Source: Eledone cirrhosa
Taxonomy: Eukaryota
Assembly (NCBI GenBank): GCA_964016885.1
Contig: OZ024743.1
Coordinates: forward strand, 217,868,001 to 217,932,000
Length of the DNA: 64,000 nucleotides
Direction of reading: 5' to 3'
Shown here piece by piece: positions 16,448-54,065 of this stretch; the first letter of the stretch is position 1, and every line of letters begins with the position of its first letter. A program made the translations under genes and the position numbers. Under the pieces are notes generated by a model. It was given only the letters and a program-made list of their open reading frames with translations, ran no database searches and was not told where the DNA came from.

Positions 16448-19205
16448 TTAGATACAATTATCCCACAATTAAGAAAACACGTTAACTTACCACTCTGGGA
16501 AAACACATCTCAAGTAATTAACTGGTTTACTAATATTAGAAATAAATCATCTGCTTCATTTCTACAATTTGATATAGATGCTTATTATTCCTCTATATCA
16601 CCCATACTCCTGAACAAAGCCTTGATATTTGCCAAAAATAGATCAGACTTAACTATGGATGACATTAATATTATCACGTACGCTAGACAAATACTACTGG
16701 AGTTTCAGAAGGAATACTGGACCAGAAATACATATAATAATCTCGTCGACATAACTATGGGCTCTAGTGATTCCGCCCAAATTACCGATCTTGTTGGCCT
16801 CTTTCTTCTATTTAACATTAATTCATTTTTTCCCCCACCTTAAAAGTGGTTTATATCGTGATGACTGTCTTCTTCTTTCCACTAATCTTAGCCTATCAGA
16901 AATTGAAAGAAATAAAAAACTTATTAGAACTTTCCTCAAAGACTATTACAATCCCACTATTACATTTGAAAACACCAGTAAAATAGTCAATTTCCTAGAT
17001 ATAACTTTAGACCTATCTACCAACCTTACCATAAACCTAACCAAAACTTACATTACATACACTCACAATCCAATCACCCTAGATCTATCCTTAAAAAACC
17101 TAGCATATAACATCTCACTGAGAATCTCTAACCTTTCCTCTAACCAGGATGTATTCGATAAAAACGCGCCCTTTTATAACGAAGCTTTAGCTAGAAGCGG
17201 CCACAAAAACAAATTACTCTACATACCTTGCACCAATAATACTTCAAACATACAACCCAATATTACCAACAAACACCAAATGAAAAACCCACACCTAAAT
17301 GTCACTCATACTACACCTAAAAATACCAACCTAAAACTTAATTTCGCTAACTCTTCTCACATAAAATATAATGACTTTCAAAAAACCATTCATCATAATA
17401 CTCCAATATATGTTAACAACATTACTAACAAAATTCCTAGTAATCAGACTAAAACACCTAAATCAGTTAATCTAACTAAACCTATATATAATAAAGTCAC
17501 TAATAGTAACTCTCTTAGTAAACATTCTGATACAACGTATAAAAATAAAAAACAATATCGAAACCGTAATAGACGAGTTACTTGGTATAATGCTCCATTT
17601 AATCTACAAATTAAAGACAATATCCCTAAAAACTTCTTTGCTATCCTAGAGAAAAACTCCCACCAAACCATAAATACCATCAAATTTTAAATAGATCAAC
17701 TGTCAAATTTTCCTACTCCACTACCAAAAATATACAACAGAATATAAGTGCGTACAACGCATATAAGTTTTTAAAAACCACAAATATACCACCAACACAT
17801 CAAACCAACCATAATGCTAAAATAAACCTCAACAAACCACCATCTCCTTCACCTATAACAAGTCGAGTAAACTCCACACCAAATTTGACTAACTCCCCTG
17901 ATATAATATTCACGAATGGTTGTAACTGTAGAATCAAAAGAAATTGCCCATTAAAAGGGAAATTGTCTTATTAATAACATAGTCTATAAATGTAAAATTA
18001 GCACTAAGGACTCCACTTATTCATATATAGGAGCTACGTCTAATCAATTTAAAGTAAGATTTAAAACATAGTTTTTAAAATGCCGCATTAGCTAATACAA
18101 CACCCTTGGCTGAAACAATTAATAATTATAGAAAGAAGAATATCGATTACAACCTGACCCCGAGCGTGCTCAAAAGGGCCACCCCTTATCGAATTAGTAG
18201 ATACGAGTGTAGGTTATGCTCCCAGGAACTTTTTGAAATCATGAAATCTAAGGATATCCTATTAAATAAGCGACAGGAATTAATTATATCTTGCAATCAT
18301 AGAATTAGAAGAACCTTCAAATATTATAAACCTAATTAATATACACCTTACTCTTATATTTTACAAATTATTATAATTGGGTTTTTTAATTTAGTTAACC
18401 TATAATTAGTATTTTACTACAGAGAACTTCATAATTTTATTTCCCTCTTACAGCTCTCTTTTCCTAAAATACCTATAAGTATACCTATGAATGAATTTAA
18501 TTTCCTGTTATGTATCTAGATTCCTTGTAGTTTAAATAAGATTGGTATTTCTCACTACTACCCTTACCCCAAAATTTTACTTTCCTTTGTTTTTAACAAC
18601 ACTCTTTAATAACGTCTAATTCTTATTTATCACATTCATATTAATTAATGTAACTTTATCCCTATAACTATACCTATCAATTAATTTAATTTCTTGTTAT
18701 AGATCTAGATTCCTTGTGGTTTAAATAAGATTGGTATTTCTCACTAATACTCTTACCATAAAATTTTATTTTCCTTCGTTTTTAACATTATTCTTTAATA
18801 ACATCAAATTTTCGTGTTCCTTTCACTATCTTCTTGGCTTGACCTCTTTTCATCCCTAAAGTATTCTTTTCATTCAAAACATAAGTCTTCACTCCTCTAC
18901 CCCGAAATTAAATTTCTACTACTGTTATTCTATCAACTTGACCTCGAACTACTTTTCTATTGGTCAATTCAAAAGCTATTCCCAAACATACCTTTTATAT
19001 TAAATGTTTGTTGGTTTTTTTCAATAAACACATCTCATCATTTCTGAGGACGGCATGTATATGTGAAGGTATGTATATTTCCTCTGATAAATTGTAATAT
19101 TTTTCCATAGATCTATTTGATATACATCCCAGAAACGATCGTAAAATGATGAATTTTTTTAATATAAGGAACTTGTTCTTTGTTTTTATTTCATTGTTTT
19201 TATTA

Positions 19206-27951: not shown

Positions 27952-28027
27952 ATATATATATATATATATATATATATAGGACCTCTTAAACCACCTCCCC
28001 AAACATGTCAACAACGACACTATTATT

Positions 28028-29416
28028 GTGTCTTTCGATGTAGTGAATCTCTATACAACGATCCCACACCAATACGGACTAGAAGCAATAGGATTCTGGC
28101 TAGAGAAATATCCCAATGAGATACCTGACAGAATAGAAAAAAGCTTCATCACCGAGGGATTAAAATTCACCCTACAGAACAACTTTTTTGATTTCGATGG
28201 CAATACTTACAAGCAAATATCGGGGACTGCGATAGGCACAAATGCCGCTCCAACTTATGCCAACTTAGTCATGGCATACTTAGAAGTCCAGATATATGAA
28301 CAGTCCAAATCAAAATACGGATTGAACTTCCACAAATATTTATCAGAGAATTGGAAACGCTACTTGGATGATTGCCTCATTCTTTGGTCCCACACACTCG
28401 ACCAACTGAAGGATTTCAAAAACTTAATAAACGGCATCAATAACCACATCCAATTCACAATGGAATACAGCCAAGATCAACTCCCATTACTGGACATCTT
28501 AATCACAAAAAAAGTCACAAATATCGAAACTGACATACACTACAAACCAACAGATTCCAAACAATATCTGCTATTCACCTCCAACCATCCAAAGCACACG
28601 AAGACGAACATTCCTTTTAACCTAGCAAGAAGAATTTGCACAATTGTCTCCAGTTATGAAACGCGAAATAAAAGACTTCAAGAATTAAAGGAAATTCTAC
28701 TTGAGAGAGAGTACCCACTATTACTAATAAATAATGGAATAGAAAGGGCTAAAGCAATAGGCATTGATGAATTACGGAAACAGAAACAAATTCAAGGTAC
28801 GTCCAATATTCTATCATATATCTCAACACACAACCCAAGAAATGCGGAAGCTTACAACACTATTCACAATAACATCCCACTACTAAAACAAAACCCAAGA
28901 ATGAAAAAAGCTCTTGAAACACACAAAATAATCAAAAGCAAAAGACAACCAAAATCACTGAAAACATTACTCACCAATGCCAAATTACCTACCACAAACC
29001 CACAACCAAGTATCAAAAAATGTGGTCGCTCTAATTGTGGAACCTGCACTCACCTCATTGGAGGCAACACGTATACATTTAAATCAGGACAAAATTTTAC
29101 TGTAAAAAATCACTTCACTTGCTCATCAAAAAATCTGATTTATGCCATTAAATGTAAAGGATGCAATGAAGATTATATAGGACAAACTAAACTCCCACTC
29201 AGAAACAGAATGACAGTTCATCGCCAACAATTACGAGATCCAACCACGAGACAGATACCACTAAGTGCACATCTAGACATTTGCGCAAGTAATAAGACAC
29301 CCAAATTCCAAGTCTTCCCATTTTACCTTTGCGCTAACAATACAACAGAACAAATGCGAATAAATAAGGAAAATATGTTTATTCAAAAATATAGACCAAC
29401 ATTAAATAAGGTTTAA
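28028..29416 (+). CDS. PLE reverse transcriptase + Zn knuckle + GIY-YIG endonuclease (N-terminally truncated)
   Basis: FDVVNLYTTIP, GTAIGTNAAPTYANL, RYLDD, KPTDSKQYL, CGRSNCGTC, LIYAIKC...YIGQT...R...H, terminal LN. Confidence 0.92.
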   Translation: MSFDVVNLYTTIPHQYGLEAIGFWLEKYPNEIPDRIEKSFITEGLKFTLQNNFFDFDGNTYKQISGTAIGTNAAPTYANLVMAYLEVQIYEQSKSKYGLNFHKYLSENWKRYLDDCLILWSHTLDQLKDFKNLINGINNHIQFTMEYSQDQLPLLDILITKKVTNIETDIHYKPTDSKQYLLFTSNHPKHTKTNIPFNLARRICTIVSSYETRNKRLQELKEILLEREYPLLLINNGIERAKAIGIDELRKQKQIQGTSNILSYISTHNPRNAEAYNTIHNNIPLLKQNPRMKKALETHKIIKSKRQPKSLKTLLTNAKLPTTNPQPSIKKCGRSNCGTCTHLIGGNTYTFKSGQNFTVKNHFTCSSKNLIYAIKCKGCNEDYIGQTKLPLRNRMTVHRQQLRDPTTRQIPLSAHLDICASNKTPKFQVFPFYLCANNTTEQMRINKENMFIQKYRPTLNKV

Positions 29417-41644: not shown

Positions 41645-41679
<35 letters not shown>

Positions 41680-41680
<1 letters not shown>

Positions 41681-42563
41681 AAATTGAGGTTGGTAATGGC
41701 ACATGGAATATATAAGAGACAGAATACTTTTTTGTGAAAAAACATATAATTTTATAAGGTAAGGAAATAATAAAGGGTATAAAAAATGACCGGTTTCGAT
41801 GGGTCTGCAAAAGCCATCTTTTCAAATGTTGATTAATATTAAGAAAAATTAATAATAAGAAGAGTTAAAATTTGAGATTTGAAAATTCAAGTATAAAATT
41901 CATTGTGGGATTTCACAGTATTTTTCATCTTGGTAGCAGCTCGTTTAGCAGCTCGTTGACTGCTGGGTGCCTTTCTGGTAGTGAATGTGTGTGTATGTGT
42001 ATGTATATGTATATGTATGTATGTGTGGATGAAGGTATGTGTGTATATATAGGTGTAAGTGCACTAAATCCCTTTCTATCAATCTCCCCTCTCCTACCTA
42101 CCACAGGAAGATATATGTATGTATATTGCTTCTACCCCCTCACTGACCAGCAGCTGGCCATCTGGCCATTGCTAAATTTGACCTTTATAAAATAACCCAC
42201 ACCCCCAAATAACTTCTCATTCACTACCAGAAAGGCACCCAGCAGTCAACGAGCTTCTAAACGAGCTGCTACCAAGATGAAAAATACTGTGAAATCCCAC
42301 AATGAATTTTATACTTGAATTTTCAAATCTCAAATTTTAAATCTTCTTATTATTAATTTTTCTTAATATTAATCAACATTTGAAAAGATGGCTTTTGCAG
42401 ACCCATCGAAACCGGTCATTTTTTTATACCCTTTATTATTTCCTTACCTTATAAAATTATATGTTTTTTCACAAAAAAGTATTCTGTCTCTTATATATTC
42501 CATGTGCCATTACCAACCTCAATTTTCTCTATAACCTTCGTTTGTGTAGTAAATTACACTTTT
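41680..42563. mobile_element. Fold-back pLTR, ~310-bp arms, with U3:A8 hammerheads
   Basis: 41680-41987 is the reverse complement of 42218-42530. TTGAAAA-gatgg/ccatc-GAAA-CCGG-TC at 42380-42417 (+) and ~41788-41826 (-). Stem I is weak; ~30-nt tail. Confidence 0.8.
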
Positions 42564-42581
42564 CATATATATATATATATA

Positions 42582-43072
42582 TAAAAACAAATAACGAAAC
42601 GAAATTAAATTTCGTTTCGTTTGTAACTCACTTTTGTATGACTGACGCTTAAACAATTAAGTTAAAAATGTACATCCACATATGTATACTGAAATACTAG
42701 TATGCATATGAATACACACACGTGTACATATGTAGATGTACCGAGTTTTTCACTGGACACTTTACTGTGAGTGTTCAGCTATTCTGTATGTAAACACACA
42801 GACAAACCGGTTTTTAGAGTCATACTGGTTTTCGAGGAAACACCTTTCCTCTATTCTCCAAAAAGCCAGACAGGAACATTGGACTAGTTTCGATGTTGTT
42901 ACATCTCATCAGCAATATTTACCTATCCACCGGCCTTTCTAGAGAATCGTAAAAGCACATATCGTTATATGCTTTTTCTATGAAAATTAGTAGTGGGCAG
43001 ACTAATTTGCATAGAGCGTGAGTACGTACCGGTTCAGCGGAGACGATAAAAACGTTATTTGTTTTTATCGTC
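42582..43072 (-). mobile_element. Diverged relative of the 418-bp HHR repeat
   Basis: Shares the octamer (43005-43012), HHR with CTAG stem III, gaaattt...cgtttc end and overall layout. Confidence 0.65.
42875..42919 (-). ncRNA. Minimal type I hammerhead
   Basis: aatattg-CTGATGA-gatgt aaca acatc-GAAA-CTAG-TC-caatgtt. Confidence 0.88.
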
Positions 43073-43774
43073 TTGAGGTCATTACCCATTGAATGGAATG
43101 GTTGAAGGGTGTTAACAGGGTGTTACTAGTAGATTTGGCATAAAAATCCATTAACAGGAAAGGGATTGATAGTTGAATGTATCTGGTATAGTGTATTTAA
43201 AAGGAATGTCAAAATAAATGGTGATTAGTGTTGTATTGAGTTTTAAGGTGAATATAAATTAAGGTTATGGCTAGAAAAGATAGTATATTAAAAGATGAAA
43301 ATGATAATAAGATAATGAAATACAGTAATACGATAATATACAACTTAACCAACACAATATAGTACTGTGTGTTAAATTGCATTTAATATAATATAGCATA
43401 TGATACGCTCTAAAATACTATCAAGTATGTTTATGCATAAATAATCAAACTCAGATAAATATGTTGGCATAGTTAAAACACATAAATTTCATAGATTACA
43501 AAGTGCATATACCCACACTATATATAGAGAGAGGTACAGTTAAATTGATATCCAACCAAAAATATACATACGCACAAATAGATGGAAATGAAAATACACA
43601 TTTACACGCATGCATATAATGATATACATACATATCCGTACATATCTATATCCACACATACACATCTATGCCGACATATATACATATATATATACACACA
43701 CACTCAAACATACATACATATATATAAATATATATATATATACACACACATACACATATATACATACACACACG

Positions 43775-43858
<84 letters not shown>

Positions 43859-43865
43859 CATATAC

Positions 43866-43936
<71 letters not shown>

Positions 43937-46900
43937 CACACACACACACATACACATATATATATATATACATGTGTGAGTATCTGTACACTACTCATAC
44001 ATGTGCACATACTCACACATAAACACTCGTACACCTATACTCACACATGGTGGATGCCAACTCGCTTTTGAGTACGGCCACTACTTTATATCCATGTAGG
44101 AGAACCCTACCGATGCGCTGAACGAATGTGACATTTTAGTCCAGCCAGCGACTTGAAAAATCTGGTACAGACACTACACTTGTGACAATTATTGACACAT
44201 AGTGCTGGGCCCATGGTACCATGTGACGACAAGTGCAGAGAGATCTCCAGATATAAAGCAATGCCTGTGCTGTGAAGCTTTTATAGTGAGCAAAGGCACT
44301 GCACCAAGCCAGTCCCACTCTCTTAACCAAGATGATATTTACCAAAAAGAGGAACAAGTCAACATCATTGGATACCATCAGGGTTGCAGGTGTTACATCA
44401 GAGTTTTCCTTCTCCTAGAATTCTGCCTTGACAAAGGCTAAGGAGTCATCTCTCTCGGTGATTTTGGATGGCCATTGACTCTTAAGAGCTCATTTGCCCT
44501 TTGACAGGTTTTGTTTTTAGTCCTGCAGGATGTCCAGTCACCCTCCTCACCAAGAAACCTTGGTGGGGTTGCCAGTTTAGTCGCCAACGACCCGACAATG
44601 AGACAGGTTGTACTGGGATACATGTTACCAGTACTCACACATACACACATACAAACACTCACATATATATATACATATATATATATACACATATGTATAT
44701 ATATACATATATACACATACACACATACACACATATACAAGCATACATATATATACACATATACACATACATAAATACATATACACACATATACATATAT
44801 ATACATACACACACATAAATATATTTCCATATCATACATAGATATATATTTACTCATGCAATTACGGCTGATTGTGTATCTTGTTGCCTTTAGTCATTAA
44901 CGCATAAATCTAAGGAAGCTAATACATTAAAAGGCAAAAGATAAGCATGAATGCATATAATTAGGGGAAAGAGGTACTAATAAGTGTTACTCTATATGGA
45001 ATTATAGTGAGTTGCTATTTAGAATATTTAATTAGGTTTATAGTATTTAATTAGATTTATAGTATTTAAATGTTTCGTATACAGTGATTACAAATCCTGT
45101 CTTTTATTTAATAAATCGTCCTTAGATTTAGTTATTTCCAAGATCTCCCCTGAACATAATCTGCATTCCCTACTGTTCCCAAGATATGGAGTTCTTTGTA
45201 GAAATCTATTTTTTCCTTTTTATAATTATTTGCCGCTTCAGCTAAAGATGTGGTGTTTATTATTGTTGAAACTACTAGAGTGTGCGTAAAATATTTTCTT
45301 AAATGTATTTGATGTAGATCCTAAATATGTTTTGTTGAAGTCTGTAGTAGACACAGTGCATTTATATATTACATTATTAATCAAACAGTTTCCATTTAAG
45401 GGGCAAATGCTTCTATTTCTTCAATTACAGCCATACGTAAGATGGTTATTGGAGGTGCCTGTATTATTCTCATTAATCCTTGAACTATTTCTATTGTAAT
45501 TAATGATAGCAGGAGAATAAAGGTTGCTTTGTGGATGGTTTGGTGCTAGGGTTGTATTGTGATTTTGTGTTCTGTTGTTTTTGTGTGGGTGATTTAGTTT
45601 GTTGTGTTTTCTAGGTTGAAGGATTGTATTATTTGCCTTTTTAAAAGGTGCAGTCCTATTTAAATTATGTTCCGGTGGTGTAGTCATATTTTTTTAAAGT
45701 TTATAAATGTTGTAGTTGCTTATTTTTTGTTTGAGATTGCTTGATGTAGAGTATGAGAATTTTACAGTATATTTGTTAAATATTTGGTGGCATCTGTGGT
45801 TTGGTGGAAAATGTTTATATAGAATTTCAAAGAATTTTTAGGGATTTGTCCAATAGTTTGCAGGTTGAAGGGGGGTGTTGTGCCATGTTATGTTTCTTTT
45901 GCGGTTTTTAGTTAAATTCTTATTGTCACTTATATTATTATGTTGTGTTCTAGAAGAATTCCTATGGTTAGTGTCCTTATTTGTGGAATTTGGTAAATTA
46001 TCGTGGTTGTATTTAGTGTTATTTTGGGCTAGATTATGAGATTTTGAATGCTTGATATTCATACGTGGGTTGATAATATTGGTCATAGATCGTGTATTAA
46101 TAGTTGTTGTGATTTTTCGGTTGTCTGGTGTAATAGGAATAACCACTTTAGGTATTTGTTTCAATGGTGTTTTTTGTTGTTTGTAGTTTTTGTTAGGTTT
46201 TATGTTTTGGTCCATTGTAGTGTTGGGGATACATGAGATTGTTTCTTTATATCCACTTCTAGTTAAGGCCACGTTGTAGAAGGGTGCATTATTATAAAAT
46301 GTACACAATGTAGATTCTGGTTAGGTTTGTGGTAAGGTTCATAAGTATTCGTAGAGAGGTCTAAGGTAACGTCAAGAAAATTAGTTACTTTTGAAGTGTT
46401 TTCAAAAGTGATGCTAAGGCTGTAATAGTCCCCGAGGAATCCTCCAATTTGTTTTTTGTTCTTCTCTATATTGGAATTGCTAAGATTGTTAGATAACAAT
46501 AGACAATCATCCCGACAAAGACCACCCCTGAGGTGGGGAAAAGAGTCATGAATGATATAGATAAGAAATAGTTCAACGAGGTCTGTAACTTGAGCAGAAT
46601 CCATGGATCCCATCGTAATATCGAAAGAGTTGTTATATGTGTTTCTTGTCCAGTATTCTCCCTGGAAGTCTAGCAAGGTTTTTCTAGCGTGAGTTTTGAT
46701 GTTGATTTCCTCAGTAGATAAATCCTATCCTTTTCTGGCAAAGATCAGTCCCCTGCCTAAAAGAATTGGAGGAATCGAAGAATAGCAAGAATCGATGTCG
46801 AACCGAATGAACGAAGCTGAGTTTCCACTCCCAATGCCAGTAAACCATTCAACAACTTGGGAAGTGTTATCCCATAGTGAATGTGTTACAGACTTTCTAA

Positions 46901-48720
46901 TTTGCGGAATGACACGGTCAAAAATCTTTGCTGACATTGCCGATATCAGATCCAGATGGGCACATCAGTCTAACAGATGGTTTCGAGCCAAAGTCAGACC
47001 CATGGTCTTTCAGGTTGAAGTGCGGGCTTTTAGGCGTGAAAGGCTCAGTCCTATCTTCAATCTGGAGCTTTCTTCCTATATCACATGACACGTCGCTCAG
47101 GGATGCCAGTGCGGTGGTATTTGCTTTTCTATAGTTCTTTTCAAGTTCTTTATACACGAACTGGCCATACCTACCGATATCCATATGGTACAAGTTACCA
47201 GTCTTGTCAGAACGGACATGGACCCCGCCTGAACCTTTCAGTTGCAGAAGGGCAGAATCTAATCCCCCTTGGAACCCCGACCTGCGCCCCCCAACCCCAT
47301 GTTTTCAATCACGTTCAGTAGGGCGCTCTCACAATTTTCCAGTTGAACATTATGAGGAGGACCTTTGCATGTCCTGAATCCATAGCGGCACCTCACCCCA
47401 TCCGCATCAGCTCCGTTATCAAAATGGTAGGCCCTCCATCTCACCCCCCTAACAAATTGGTTAGTTTTTGTATGAGTAAGATTAGATATTCATCTTTAGG
47501 TGGAATTGGAATATTCTTCAACGAAGTACCCAAATATTGTTTTTTCATTGTGATACAAGAATTAGATGAAAAAGAGCTCAACTAAATATTATAATCAATT
47601 ATGAAAAATATATTGAAGGAGCAAAATGCACAGAGGTATCCTCAGTAAGTTGTGGGGTCGATTCTGCATGAAGAACTCGATGTAATCCATATGTTGAAAA
47701 TGTAGGTTAAGATAAATCTCGGAAAACAATAAAACATTAAAAGGAAAACAGAGTCATGATATAAGTTAAAACAATGAAATAAAAAATCAAGTCATTAGAG
47801 ATATACTTCACTGCTTTACGATCGTTTCTAGATGATGATAATACATTGTAGCTATACTCAGTAATTGATCTGTGTAAGGTTAGTTACAAACTATCAGATA
47901 AAGAGAATATTTACTTACATGCATATCACCAGCTATTTTCAAAAGCAATAATAATTGTATTCAATAATGATTTTATTCAGAATTAGTAGTATGTTAGTAT
48001 CATGTCCTTATTTGGGGTTAGTTGAAGAACTAACGAATCAAATTGTTTGTTTCATATGGTGTTAAGATGAAAAATAATATACTTTAGTTGAGGTCATGAC
48101 CCTTTGAAAGGAATGGTTGAAGGGTGATTTGGCATAAAAATCTATTAGGAGGAAAGGGATTGTCAAACTGATAGTTGAATGTATCTGGTATAGTGAATTT
48201 AAAAGGAATGTCAAAATAAATGGTGATTAGTGTTGTATTGAGTTTTAAGGTGAATACAAATTAAGGTTATGGCTAGGAAAGATAGTATATTAAAAGATGA
48301 AAATGATAATAAGATAATGAAATACAGTAATGCGATAATATACAACTTAACCAACACAATATAGTACCGTGTGGTAAATTGCATTTAGTATAATATAGCA
48401 TATGATACGCTCTAAAATACTATCAAGTATGATTATGGATAAATAATCAAACTCAGATAAATTCATGTTGGCATAGTTAAAACACATAAAATTCATATAT
48501 TACAAAGTGCATATACTCACACTATATATAGAGAGAGGTAGAGTTAAATTGATATCCAACCAAAAATATACATACGCACAAATAGATGCAAATCTAAATA
48601 CACATTTACACGCATGCATATAATGATATACATACATATCCGTACATATCTATATCCACACATACACATCTATACCCACATATATACATATATACACACA
48701 CACACTCATACATACATATG
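43073..48720 (-). mobile_element. Near full-length defective Penelope-like element (Naiad-like) with upstream pLTR
   Basis: pLTR ~48720-47625 with HHR at 47810-47949. ORF starts at 47548 (MKKQYLGTSLKNIPIPP...RWRAYHF), then RT motifs and GIY-YIG to ~45050. The 3' region is interrupted by the element at 44046-44634. Confidence 0.9.
44046..44634 (-). mobile_element. RTE-derived bipartite element nested in the PLE 3' region
   Basis: Near-identical to 22467-23060; actcacacat occurs on both sides. Confidence 0.7.
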
Positions 48721-48729
48721 TATATAAAT

Positions 48730-49070
48730 AAACCCTAAACAAACCCCTCTTAAAGGGAGACTACTCTTTTTCCACCTAATTTTAATTCTTTGATATTAGA
48801 GTTAGAACAGATACTCTATACTATTTCCGGTCAGAATGGCTTGGCTAGAGATTTAAGACGCTGGTTTGAGACCTTTATTTCCCTCCGAAGAAGAGATATT
48901 ATCTCGAAAATTAAGGACATTTAAATAAATTCAAGGTGAAAGACGAATTCTTTTACTATTGCATTCCTTTTTTCTATGTCCATACCTGCATTGTTTTGGC
49001 CTTATTACACATATTCAAACGTTTATACCTCATTACACAATGCTTCAAGTGAACTATAACCTCCTCCAAA
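48730..49070 (+). mobile_element. pLTR-like fragment with minimal hammerhead-like motif (CCGAAGA)
   Basis: cct-CCGAAGA-agagat att atctc-GAAA-AT-TA-agg at ~48882-48916, then AATAAA. Confidence 0.45.
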
Positions 49071-49119
49071 TATATATATATACACACACACATATATATA
49101 CATATACACATATGCATAC

Positions 49120-52650
<3,531 letters not shown>

Positions 52651-52671
52651 TATATATATATATATAATACA

Positions 52672-52763
<92 letters not shown>

Positions 52764-52871
52764 TATTTATATGTATGCGTGTGTGTTACGAAGAGATTGT
52801 CTTGGTCAAAACAGGAGTAAGCAGGAGAAAGCTCTCAACAAACTTAGTTTGTAGTTACGATGTAGATTAAG

Positions 52872-52929
<58 letters not shown>

Positions 52930-52981
52930 GTAATAATAATAATATTATTATTACACACACACGCACACACACACACACATG

Positions 52982-53094
<113 letters not shown>

Positions 53095-53205
53095 GAGAGA
53101 GAGAGGTAGAATACTGGAAGGTAATATCCATAGTGGTAGAGCACAACAGTTAGTTCACTATACCGAGAACAATTGCTTCACCTTAAGCGGATCTTCATAT
53201 ATGTA

Positions 53206-53250
<45 letters not shown>

Positions 53251-53253
<3 letters not shown>

Positions 53254-53441
53254 AACGAGTAGGACCCCGACGGCTGAAATCAAGCCGTTTCGACGGCTAA
53301 TTCTCGACAGTATTAGCCGTCGAAACGGTTTGACCTCAGCCGTCGGGGTCCTACTCGTTCCTATTATCCACTCTACTACCCTAAGTATTGAGTACTTTGG
53401 TGCGTTATGGTCCACCTGGTTCCTTACCACATTTCCTTCGT
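53251..53441. mobile_element. Fold-back pLTR fragment (16175 family)
   Basis: Hairpin 53251-53362 of two HHR 3' halves plus family tail; bounded by (TA)n. Confidence 0.8.
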
Positions 53442-53624
53442 TATATATTTATATATATATACGTTTATATGTGTATATATATACACACATATAAACGTAT
53501 ATATAAATCTATATATATACATTTACATGCATACATATACGCGCACTCCCTTATATATATATATATATAAATGGCTTCTACAGGATCATAAATGTTTCAT
53601 TTGGGAGAAATCATCAAGAAAACT

Positions 53625-53686
<62 letters not shown>

Positions 53687-53700
53687 TATATATAGATAGA

Positions 53701-53735
<35 letters not shown>

Positions 53736-53737
53736 GT

Positions 53738-53784
<47 letters not shown>

Positions 53785-53787
<3 letters not shown>

Positions 53788-54065
53788 TACATGAATCAAA
53801 GTTCTGTTTAAATGATTTATTTGCTTACAATTGTTTCTTCTAAGCAAATAGAAACAATTGTAAGGAAATAGATGATTTAAAGAGAACTTTGATTCATGTA
53901 ATTTCTATATAACTGCTCTGTAAAACAAATAATGTTGTTACATTGAGCTATTTATCTTACTGGTAATAAGGTAGTAATAAATTACTGTCTTTCACTATTT
54001 AGGGTTGAAAATATATATAACTTAAAAAGTTTTAGTATATACATAACCATAAATAGTATCCTTAA

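What the first reader, a model, noticed from the sequence alone, without database searches (positions are those of the whole stretch)
46270..47460. Sense-strand A-to-G hypermutated PLE: apparent ADAR-edited RNA retrotransposed into the genome
Seen: against the related PLE at 16448 and conserved PLE motifs, the deviations I checked in this RT are mostly explained by A>G on the coding strand. FTNIRNK (aat att aga aat aaa) becomes FTGIGSG (ggc att ggg agt gga). YY>CY, Q>R, NK>GR and LKSGLYRDD>LRGGLCRDD follow the same pattern. KDHK.NF becomes KDHGSDFG, and RLI.P.KS becomes RLMCPSGS. Asp/Glu codons (A after G) are spared and the A-rich linker downstream is untouched. Known: ADAR hyperedits long dsRNA, disfavours a 5' G, is read as A>G by RT, and is exceptionally active in coleoid cephalopods. 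Inference: a germline record of ADAR acting on, and inactivating, a PLE transcript before insertion.
Basis: partly seen in the sequence, partly recalled or inferred. Interest (0 to 1): 0.9.

Follow-up and report, generated by a model that had tools for sequence, protein, structure and literature searches.

The report
ADAR-edited Penelope RNA fossilised in genome
One copy of a Penelope-like jumping gene has about a quarter of the A's in a 1-kb stretch changed to G on its coding strand only, most likely because the RNA-editing enzyme ADAR edited its RNA before it was copied into the genome, and three other places in this genome carry the same scar.

Summary
Confirmed. Against the column majority of 51 other family loci, the minus-strand Penelope-like element (PLE, Hydra-like) carries 103 A>G at 383 A's in 47460-46430, versus 6/274 T>C, 1/326 upstream and 7/626 downstream. 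A's after G are depleted (7/66 vs 85/280). Sequencing-run contigs carry the G's unchanged at single-copy depth. The inverted arm at 49222-52653 shares 12 of 13 rare A>G in its overlap. Genome screens found three more edited loci. One, on C8, is a 4.8-kb copy of an unedited locus on C14: 19 A>G and 1 other change across both arms of a 140-bp hairpin, all on one strand, and 0 A>G at 902 flanking A's. That is what an RNA hairpin edited by ADAR and then reverse-transcribed should look like. For the window copy itself the pairing partner and source locus were not found, and 'inactivation by ADAR' is not shown. Edited copies are rare (at least 3 loci per about 2,240 tail arms). Known from retroviral proviruses; not found reported for germline PLEs in six literature searches.

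The parts
46432..47453 (-). A>G hypermutated tract in the N-terminal region and RT of copy A; sharp 5' edge at 47453, fading 3'; a few further shared A>G down to 46064
44850..47625 (-). Copy A body: ORF (RT, linker, C-terminal endonuclease region) and 3' UTR of a Hydra-like PLE; broken by 1-2 nt deletions near 47464, 47287 and 46926, a stop near 46726 and a 91-nt deletion at 46298-46303
47626..48730 (-). Upstream pseudo-LTR (tail unit) of copy A, unedited (1 A>G of 271 A in 48500-47626)
43073..43848 (-). Remnant of copy A's 3' tail unit, cut at 43073 by a younger repeat
49222..52653 (+). Copy B: inverted, 5'-truncated arm of the same insertion (head-to-head with A); carries the same sense-strand A>G edits in its overlap with the tract and lacks A's 91-nt deletion
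48735..49070 (+). Unrelated young high-copy repeat inserted at the A/B junction
16448..17800 (+). Distant PLE (about 70% identical) used as outgroup; has A at 26 of 30 edited columns

Best explanation
The window copy is a Hydra-like Penelope element whose coding strand carries a 1-kb burst of A-to-G changes, most likely written when ADAR deaminated adenosines in a double-stranded stretch of its RNA and a PLE reverse transcriptase then copied inosine as G into the germline genome. Steps: (1) shown: this family inserts as head-to-head inverted arms, so read-through RNA can fold into long hairpins; (2) inferred for this copy, shown in pattern for the C8/C14 pair: ADAR hyper-edits only the paired stem; (3) inferred: the edited RNA is reverse-transcribed, likely in trans by protein from an intact copy, because 60 of 315 codons were recoded and its source had already drifted from the family; (4) shown by shared edits: the inverted arm B comes from the same edited template as A, most simply during integration; (5) shown: both arms then aged by about 1.6% each.
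For: Spectrum and strand: 103/383 A>G vs 6/274 T>C, background elsewhere. Neighbour bias: 5' A 51/140, U 23/69, C 11/71, G 7/66, chi2 p=7.6e-5; pooled in the three other events G 4/29 vs non-G 50/128, p=0.009; 5' G depletion is the shared ADAR preference across metazoans (PMC5625713, passages). No codon bias: 77 non-synonymous to 19 synonymous sites vs 271 to 87 possible. Real DNA: contigs of runs X1-X3 cover 46697-47031 and 47042-47512 with 0-1 differences at depth 7-12, while family pieces run at hundreds. Recurrence: L073 7/29 A, L074 31/92 A with 22 of 23 edits shared by its inverted arm, L078. Parent/daughter pair: C8:29302402-29297629 copies C14:12822109-12817236; hairpin 19 A>G of 141 A plus 1 other change, 17/88 in the stem vs 2/53 outside, 0/15 after G; non-microsatellite flanks 0 A>G at 902 A; the edited strand is the one ending at a retroelement 3' tail. 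The genome encodes adenosine-deaminase domains at four places, one with intact ADAR-type catalytic motifs (motif identity from recall).
Against: For copy A the complementary strand is not in hand: arm B overlaps only the fading end of the tract and carries the same edits, and no unedited source locus sharing A/B's rare markers was found. The 3' neighbour shows no significant preference (G 15/39 vs 77/304, p=0.09). Runs X1-X3 are one sample of unrecorded library type, possibly the one assembled; the only other individual laid (X4, RAD-seq) covers the tract at depth 1 over 47340-47453. The C8, L073 and L074 loci were not checked in reads. No enzyme assay or RNA data.
Confidence: 0.9

Rival explanations
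1. Reverse-transcriptase error burst: the PLE RT inserted dC opposite A during a passing dNTP imbalance, giving sense-strand A>G without any editing enzyme.
For: Gives the same strand and substitution type; the tract in A fades gradually in one direction (rho 0.25, p=9e-7); A's pairing partner was not found.
Against: In the C8 retrocopy the changes sit in the hairpin stem only (17/88 vs 2/53; 0/902 in flanks copied by the same RT pass); 5' G depletion in all four events; A's tract stops sharply at 47453 (0/55, then 1/271 upstream).
Confidence: 0.04
2. ADAR edited a transcript of this very locus and the cDNA overwrote the locus by recombination (gene conversion), instead of a new insertion.
For: A and B form a head-to-head pair that could fold if transcribed; no separate source locus was found.
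Against: Most edits lie outside the A/B overlap; B carries the same sense A>G, not the T>C expected of the partner strand; the C8/C14 pair shows a new insertion with the parent left unedited.
Confidence: 0.03
3. A DNA-level adenine deaminase acted on single-stranded plus-strand DNA during integration, or a repeat-directed process like the TpA hypermutation noted in algae.
For: 5' T is a favoured context (23/69 in A; 14/33 in the C8 stem).
Against: One strand only (T>C at background); 5' A is edited as often as 5' T in copy A (51/140); 51 ORF-bearing loci and 38 other mini-hairpin loci plus the C14 parent are untouched; changes lie in the paired stem, not the loop.
Confidence: 0.02
4. Assembly artefact (edited cDNA or polishing error), or reversed polarity (G ancestral).
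For: Runs X1-X3 may be the assembled sample and have no library record.
Against: Three runs give identical contigs at single-copy depth; two arms that differ at 55 other sites share the edits; the outgroup has A at 26/30 columns.
Confidence: 0.01

Closest known systems
A-to-G hyperediting captured in avian retrovirus DNA (Rous-associated virus, avian leukosis virus; Felder 1994, Hajjar and Linial 1995, seen only through passages of the review PMC12925331)
   Same: ADAR-type A>G clusters, in one case inside an inverted repeat, fixed into DNA by reverse transcription
   Different: Here the element is a Penelope-like retrotransposon, the copies lie in the reference genome of an invertebrate and have aged there, the event recurs, and one parent locus survives unedited
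APOBEC 'DNA editing' of LTR retrotransposons in vertebrate genomes (Knisbacher and Levanon, PMC4866542, passages)
   Same: Strand-biased hypermutated retroelement copies fixed in the germline
   Different: That is G>A from cytidine deamination of cDNA, in LTR elements, reported as depleted in 19 invertebrate genomes; this is A>G, stem-limited, in a PLE
ADAR hyper-editing of repeat RNAs across Metazoa, including Penelope in lizard (PMC5625713) and repeats in squid (PMC9068888), passages
   Same: Repeat-derived double-stranded RNA as substrate; 5' G depletion; Penelope RNA is a known target
   Different: Those are RNA-level edits against an unedited genome; here the edits are in the DNA
Hydra clade of C-terminal-endonuclease Penelope-like elements (Craig et al., PMC8557442, section 11 read whole)
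   Same: DKT motif, CxCX5C linker, CxxC and CxH around the conserved E and N, insertion at (TA)n, pseudo-LTRs with inverted 5'-truncated arms
   Different: RWR in place of RWK; no hammerhead found by Rfam in the element; no tree built

Membership tests
ADAR hyper-editing footprint | Dense cluster of one change, A>G, on one strand | tested here: met
   103/383 A>G vs 6/274 T>C, 3/134 G>A, 5/210 C>T
ADAR hyper-editing footprint | Depletion of G at the 5' neighbour | tested here: met
   7/66 vs 85/280, p=0.001; other events 4/29 vs 50/128, p=0.009
ADAR hyper-editing footprint | 3' neighbour preference (G in amniotes, A in the invertebrate group per PMC5625713) | tested here: inconclusive
   A 40/140, C 13/65, G 15/39, T 24/99; chi2 p=0.19
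ADAR hyper-editing footprint | Edits confined to double-stranded RNA (window copy) | tested here: inconclusive
   Sharp 5' edge, but no partner strand or source locus found
ADAR hyper-editing footprint | Edits confined to double-stranded RNA (C8 copy of the same family) | tested here: met
   Both arms edited on one strand; 17/88 in stem, 2/53 outside, 0/902 in flanks
ADAR hyper-editing footprint | Host encodes ADAR | tested here: met
   PF02137 matches at four places; one read with catalytic motifs intact; dsRNA-binding domains not checked
ADAR hyper-editing footprint | Enzyme dependence; inosine in the RNA | not testable with these tools
   No RNA reads laid; needs experiment
Hydra-clade PLE | DKT in place of DKG | tested here: met
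   Present in copy A and in L046
Hydra-clade PLE | N-terminal RWK motif | tested here: inconclusive
   RWR in L046 and in copy A
Hydra-clade PLE | CxCX5C linker; C-terminal endonuclease with CxxC and CxH around E and N | tested here: met
   Read in copy B frame 50488-50946; Pfam GIY-YIG and RVT models did not ring on these fragments
Hydra-clade PLE | Insertion into (TA)n; pseudo-LTRs with inverted truncated arms | tested here: met
   3' ends at positions equivalent to 47759 or 47626 abut (TA)n; head-to-head arms in many loci
Hydra-clade PLE | Canonical hammerhead ribozyme in the pseudo-LTR | tested here: inconclusive
   Rfam scan of 42000-54000 found none inside the element; variant hammerheads can be missed
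Hydra-clade PLE | Phylogenetic placement of the RT | not tested
   No reference set in hand
APOBEC-edited retroelement | G>A on the sense strand | tested here: not met
   G>A 3/134; polarity fixed by outgroup

The most novel reading that the evidence does not exclude
ADAR editing is a recurring, heritable mutagen of this (likely octopus) genome: Penelope hairpins inside element and host read-through RNAs are hyper-edited in germ cells and written back into DNA, and the molecule-specific edit patterns act as barcodes showing that Penelope's inverted 5' arm is copied from the same RNA or cDNA molecule during integration.
Probability: 0.6. Interest if true: 0.85.

Novelty: new variant of a known kind. 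Interest (0 to 1): 0.74.

Why it matters
A 2016 review states that a role for ADAR editing in mutating retrotransposons 'has not yet been determined' (PMC4982230, passage), and a cephalopod genome paper calls transposon defence a possible but unexplored ADAR function (PMC9068888, passage). Fixed edited copies give a DNA record that ADAR meets retroelement RNA in germ cells, and let one count how often. They also give a natural barcode for the unsolved PLE integration mechanism: in two loci both inverted arms carry one edit pattern. The low frequency seen (at least 3 loci per about 2,240 tail arms, plus this one) says edited RNA seldom gets through or is seldom made; it does not show that ADAR is a major defence.

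Tried and rejected
Comparison with the 16448 PLE alone: no A>G excess over T>C (52 vs 54); replaced by family columns. Search for an unedited source of A/B: none among 40 scored of 1,988 candidates; a two-marker exact pattern hit only A and B; A's 3' flank is a younger repeat, not a transduced tag. Editing-biased patterns in the ORF: 0 hits in two 3' regions, only A itself in the RT region; antisense tail pattern 0 hits. The T>C pattern gave 0 hits at 2 mismatches and 3 at 3 mismatches: the L078 partner arm, and L081 (7/187 T>C, scattered) and L082 (8/385), which I do not call edited. Apparent clusters in L051, L018 and L067 were microsatellite misalignments, L024 and L068 subfamily differences. 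The paired hits are independent mini-hairpins, not one edited family: 38 of 38 other than the C8 copy and its parent were unedited (8 opposite-strand duplicates dropped). Whether the A/B source was an active lineage is open: shared non-A>G changes 13 non-synonymous to 10 synonymous, p=0.05 against neutral. Pfam did not recognise the RT or endonuclease fragments. Hajjar and Linial 1995 is not held. Run X4's depth of 1 over 114 nt of the tract is too thin to count as proof of a second carrier.

Full report
Setting. The window is C4:217,868,001-217,932,000 of a 3.0-Gb genome in 1,796 contigs. Chromosome-scale contigs number up to at least C28, which fits an octopus (N=30 per a passage of PMC9068888); the host was not identified, so 'coleoid' is inference.

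Anatomy. The finding lies in a minus-strand element, copy A: pseudo-LTR 48730-47626, ORF and UTR to 44850, microsatellites, and a 3' tail remnant 43848-43073 cut by a younger repeat. Head-to-head with it, past a 336-bp unrelated repeat and (TA)n, lies an inverted 5'-truncated arm, copy B, 49222-52653. Many other loci of the family show the same head-to-head layout and end on (TA)n. Motifs (DKT, RWR, CxCX5C, CxxC and CxH in the endonuclease) match the Hydra clade as described in section 11 of PMC8557442. No hammerhead was found in the element, Pfam did not ring and no tree was built, so I file it as Hydra-like.

Observation. A search with the finding returned 40 scored places of 1,460 candidates; 29 other loci were aligned. 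Against their column majority, copy A has 98 A>G at 371 A in 47460-46430 and 5 T>C at 262 T (p=1.9e-19), 0/93 upstream and 5/545 downstream. Adding 22 further loci (7 duplicates merged) gives 103/383 vs 6/274, with 1/271 in the pseudo-LTR and 7/626 downstream. None of the 51 loci has such a tract, and at the edited columns they show G in 59 of 3,378 cells. Editing by 5' neighbour: A 51/140, T 23/69, C 11/71, G 7/66; the 3' neighbour is not significant. The tract begins abruptly at 47453, peaks at 24/41 and fades 3'. It recodes 60 of 315 codons, in the proportion expected without selection (77:19 vs 271:87); the catalytic DD is kept.

Is it real DNA? Three runs of one sample hold 97-99% of the tract's words. 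Their contigs match 46697-47031 and 47042-47512 with 0-1 differences at depth 7-12, against hundreds for family pieces. Their library type is not on record and they may be the assembled sample. A RAD-seq run of another individual covers 47340-47453 at depth 1, which is suggestive only.

Copy B. In 1,726 shared columns A and B share 12 of 13 rare A>G and 34 other derived changes; 28 are private to A and 27 to B. B shows no T>C excess, so it is not the partner strand; it is a second copy of the edited template. Inverted arms at other loci also share rare markers. No unedited source carrying A/B's markers was found.

Recurrence. Editing-biased patterns found nothing else in three ORF regions but three loci in the tail, where 2,243 arms match within 2 mismatches. 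L073 has 7 A>G at 29 A. L074 has 31 at 92 A, and its inverted arm shares 22 of 23, the same pattern as A/B. L078 differs: one arm has 7/40 A>G and the other 11/54 T>C in element sense, so all changes are A>G on one continuous strand, only where the arms overlap. Two other pattern hits were background. The screen was partial; the count is a lower bound.

Parent and daughter. A search with L078's junction found the same junction and flanks at C14:12.82 Mb, unedited; 38 other mini-hairpin loci were unedited. The C8 locus copies 4.8 kb of the C14 locus and ends at an (ATG)n-tailed retroelement 3' end followed by partial tandem repeats separated by (TA)n. The parent hairpin folds into a stem of about 140 bp; the daughter differs by 19 A>G and 1 G>A there (17/88 in the stem, 2/53 outside, 0/15 after G) and by 0 A>G at 902 A in 2,585 nt of non-microsatellite flank (9 other changes). 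Microsatellite parts were left out as unalignable. The edited strand is the one that ends at the retroelement tail, as an RNA template would. This is the strongest evidence for the mechanism, though it concerns a sister locus, not copy A.

Mechanism. Shown: family-typical inverted arms; one-strand, 5'-G-avoiding A>G tracts; stem confinement and an unedited parent at one locus; shared edits between arms at two loci; ADAR-type deaminase genes in the genome. Inferred: that ADAR made the changes, that copy A's RNA paired with an inverted arm beginning near 47455, and that protein from another copy mobilised it.

Known and new. A-to-G hyperediting fixed in avian retroviral DNA is reported (passages of PMC12925331; the primary paper was not held). 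Germline hypermutated retroelements are known for APOBEC G>A in vertebrate LTR elements and were depleted in invertebrates (passages of PMC4866542 and PMC2873906). Penelope RNA is a known ADAR target in lizard (passages of PMC5625713). A review calls ADAR's mutational role on retrotransposons undetermined (passage of PMC4982230). Six full-text searches (listings only) showed no report of ADAR-edited PLE or other non-LTR copies fixed in a germline; the library lacks most subscription papers and I read no supplements, so absence is not established. Earlier unchecked notes of this scan describe similar L1 and LINE cases in other genomes, so the phenomenon is probably not special to this animal.

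Verdict. Real, well supported, and recurrent: a new variant of a known kind. Confidence in ADAR editing followed by retrotransposition 0.9; interest 0.74.

Noticed in passing
window 48735-49070: Young high-copy repeat (40 scored places 94-100% identical, 2,490 candidates) whose right end abuts (TA)n; it sits at the A/B junction and may be the tail of another PLE family.
   Followed up: partly
window about 42590-43053: Very young (97-99%) element that forms tandem and inverted arrays with a 465-bp period elsewhere in the genome and has a weak hammerhead HH9 match at 42860-42930; looks like a retrozyme-type non-autonomous PLE.
   Followed up: partly
window 27980-29416: 478-aa open frame with RVT_1 and GIY-YIG matches, a PLE of a different clade.
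   Followed up: no
G000 C8:29302402-29295900 (L133, L134): 4.8-kb retrocopy of host DNA from C14 ending at an (ATG)n-tailed repeat, followed by two partial tandem repeats of its 3' end separated by (TA)n; which element's machinery inserted it is open.
   Followed up: partly
L085-L131: Many independent mini-hairpin insertions have head-to-head junctions in a narrow zone equivalent to 47890-47960, one arm ending at 47759 and the other at 47626, which suggests a preferred fold-back or template-switch point.
   Followed up: no
window 41676-41987 and 42218-42530: 99% identical 313-bp inverted pair of another repeat.
   Followed up: no
L074:1044-1364: 321-bp near-perfect palindrome (MITE-like) beside the edited PLE hairpin.
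   Followed up: no
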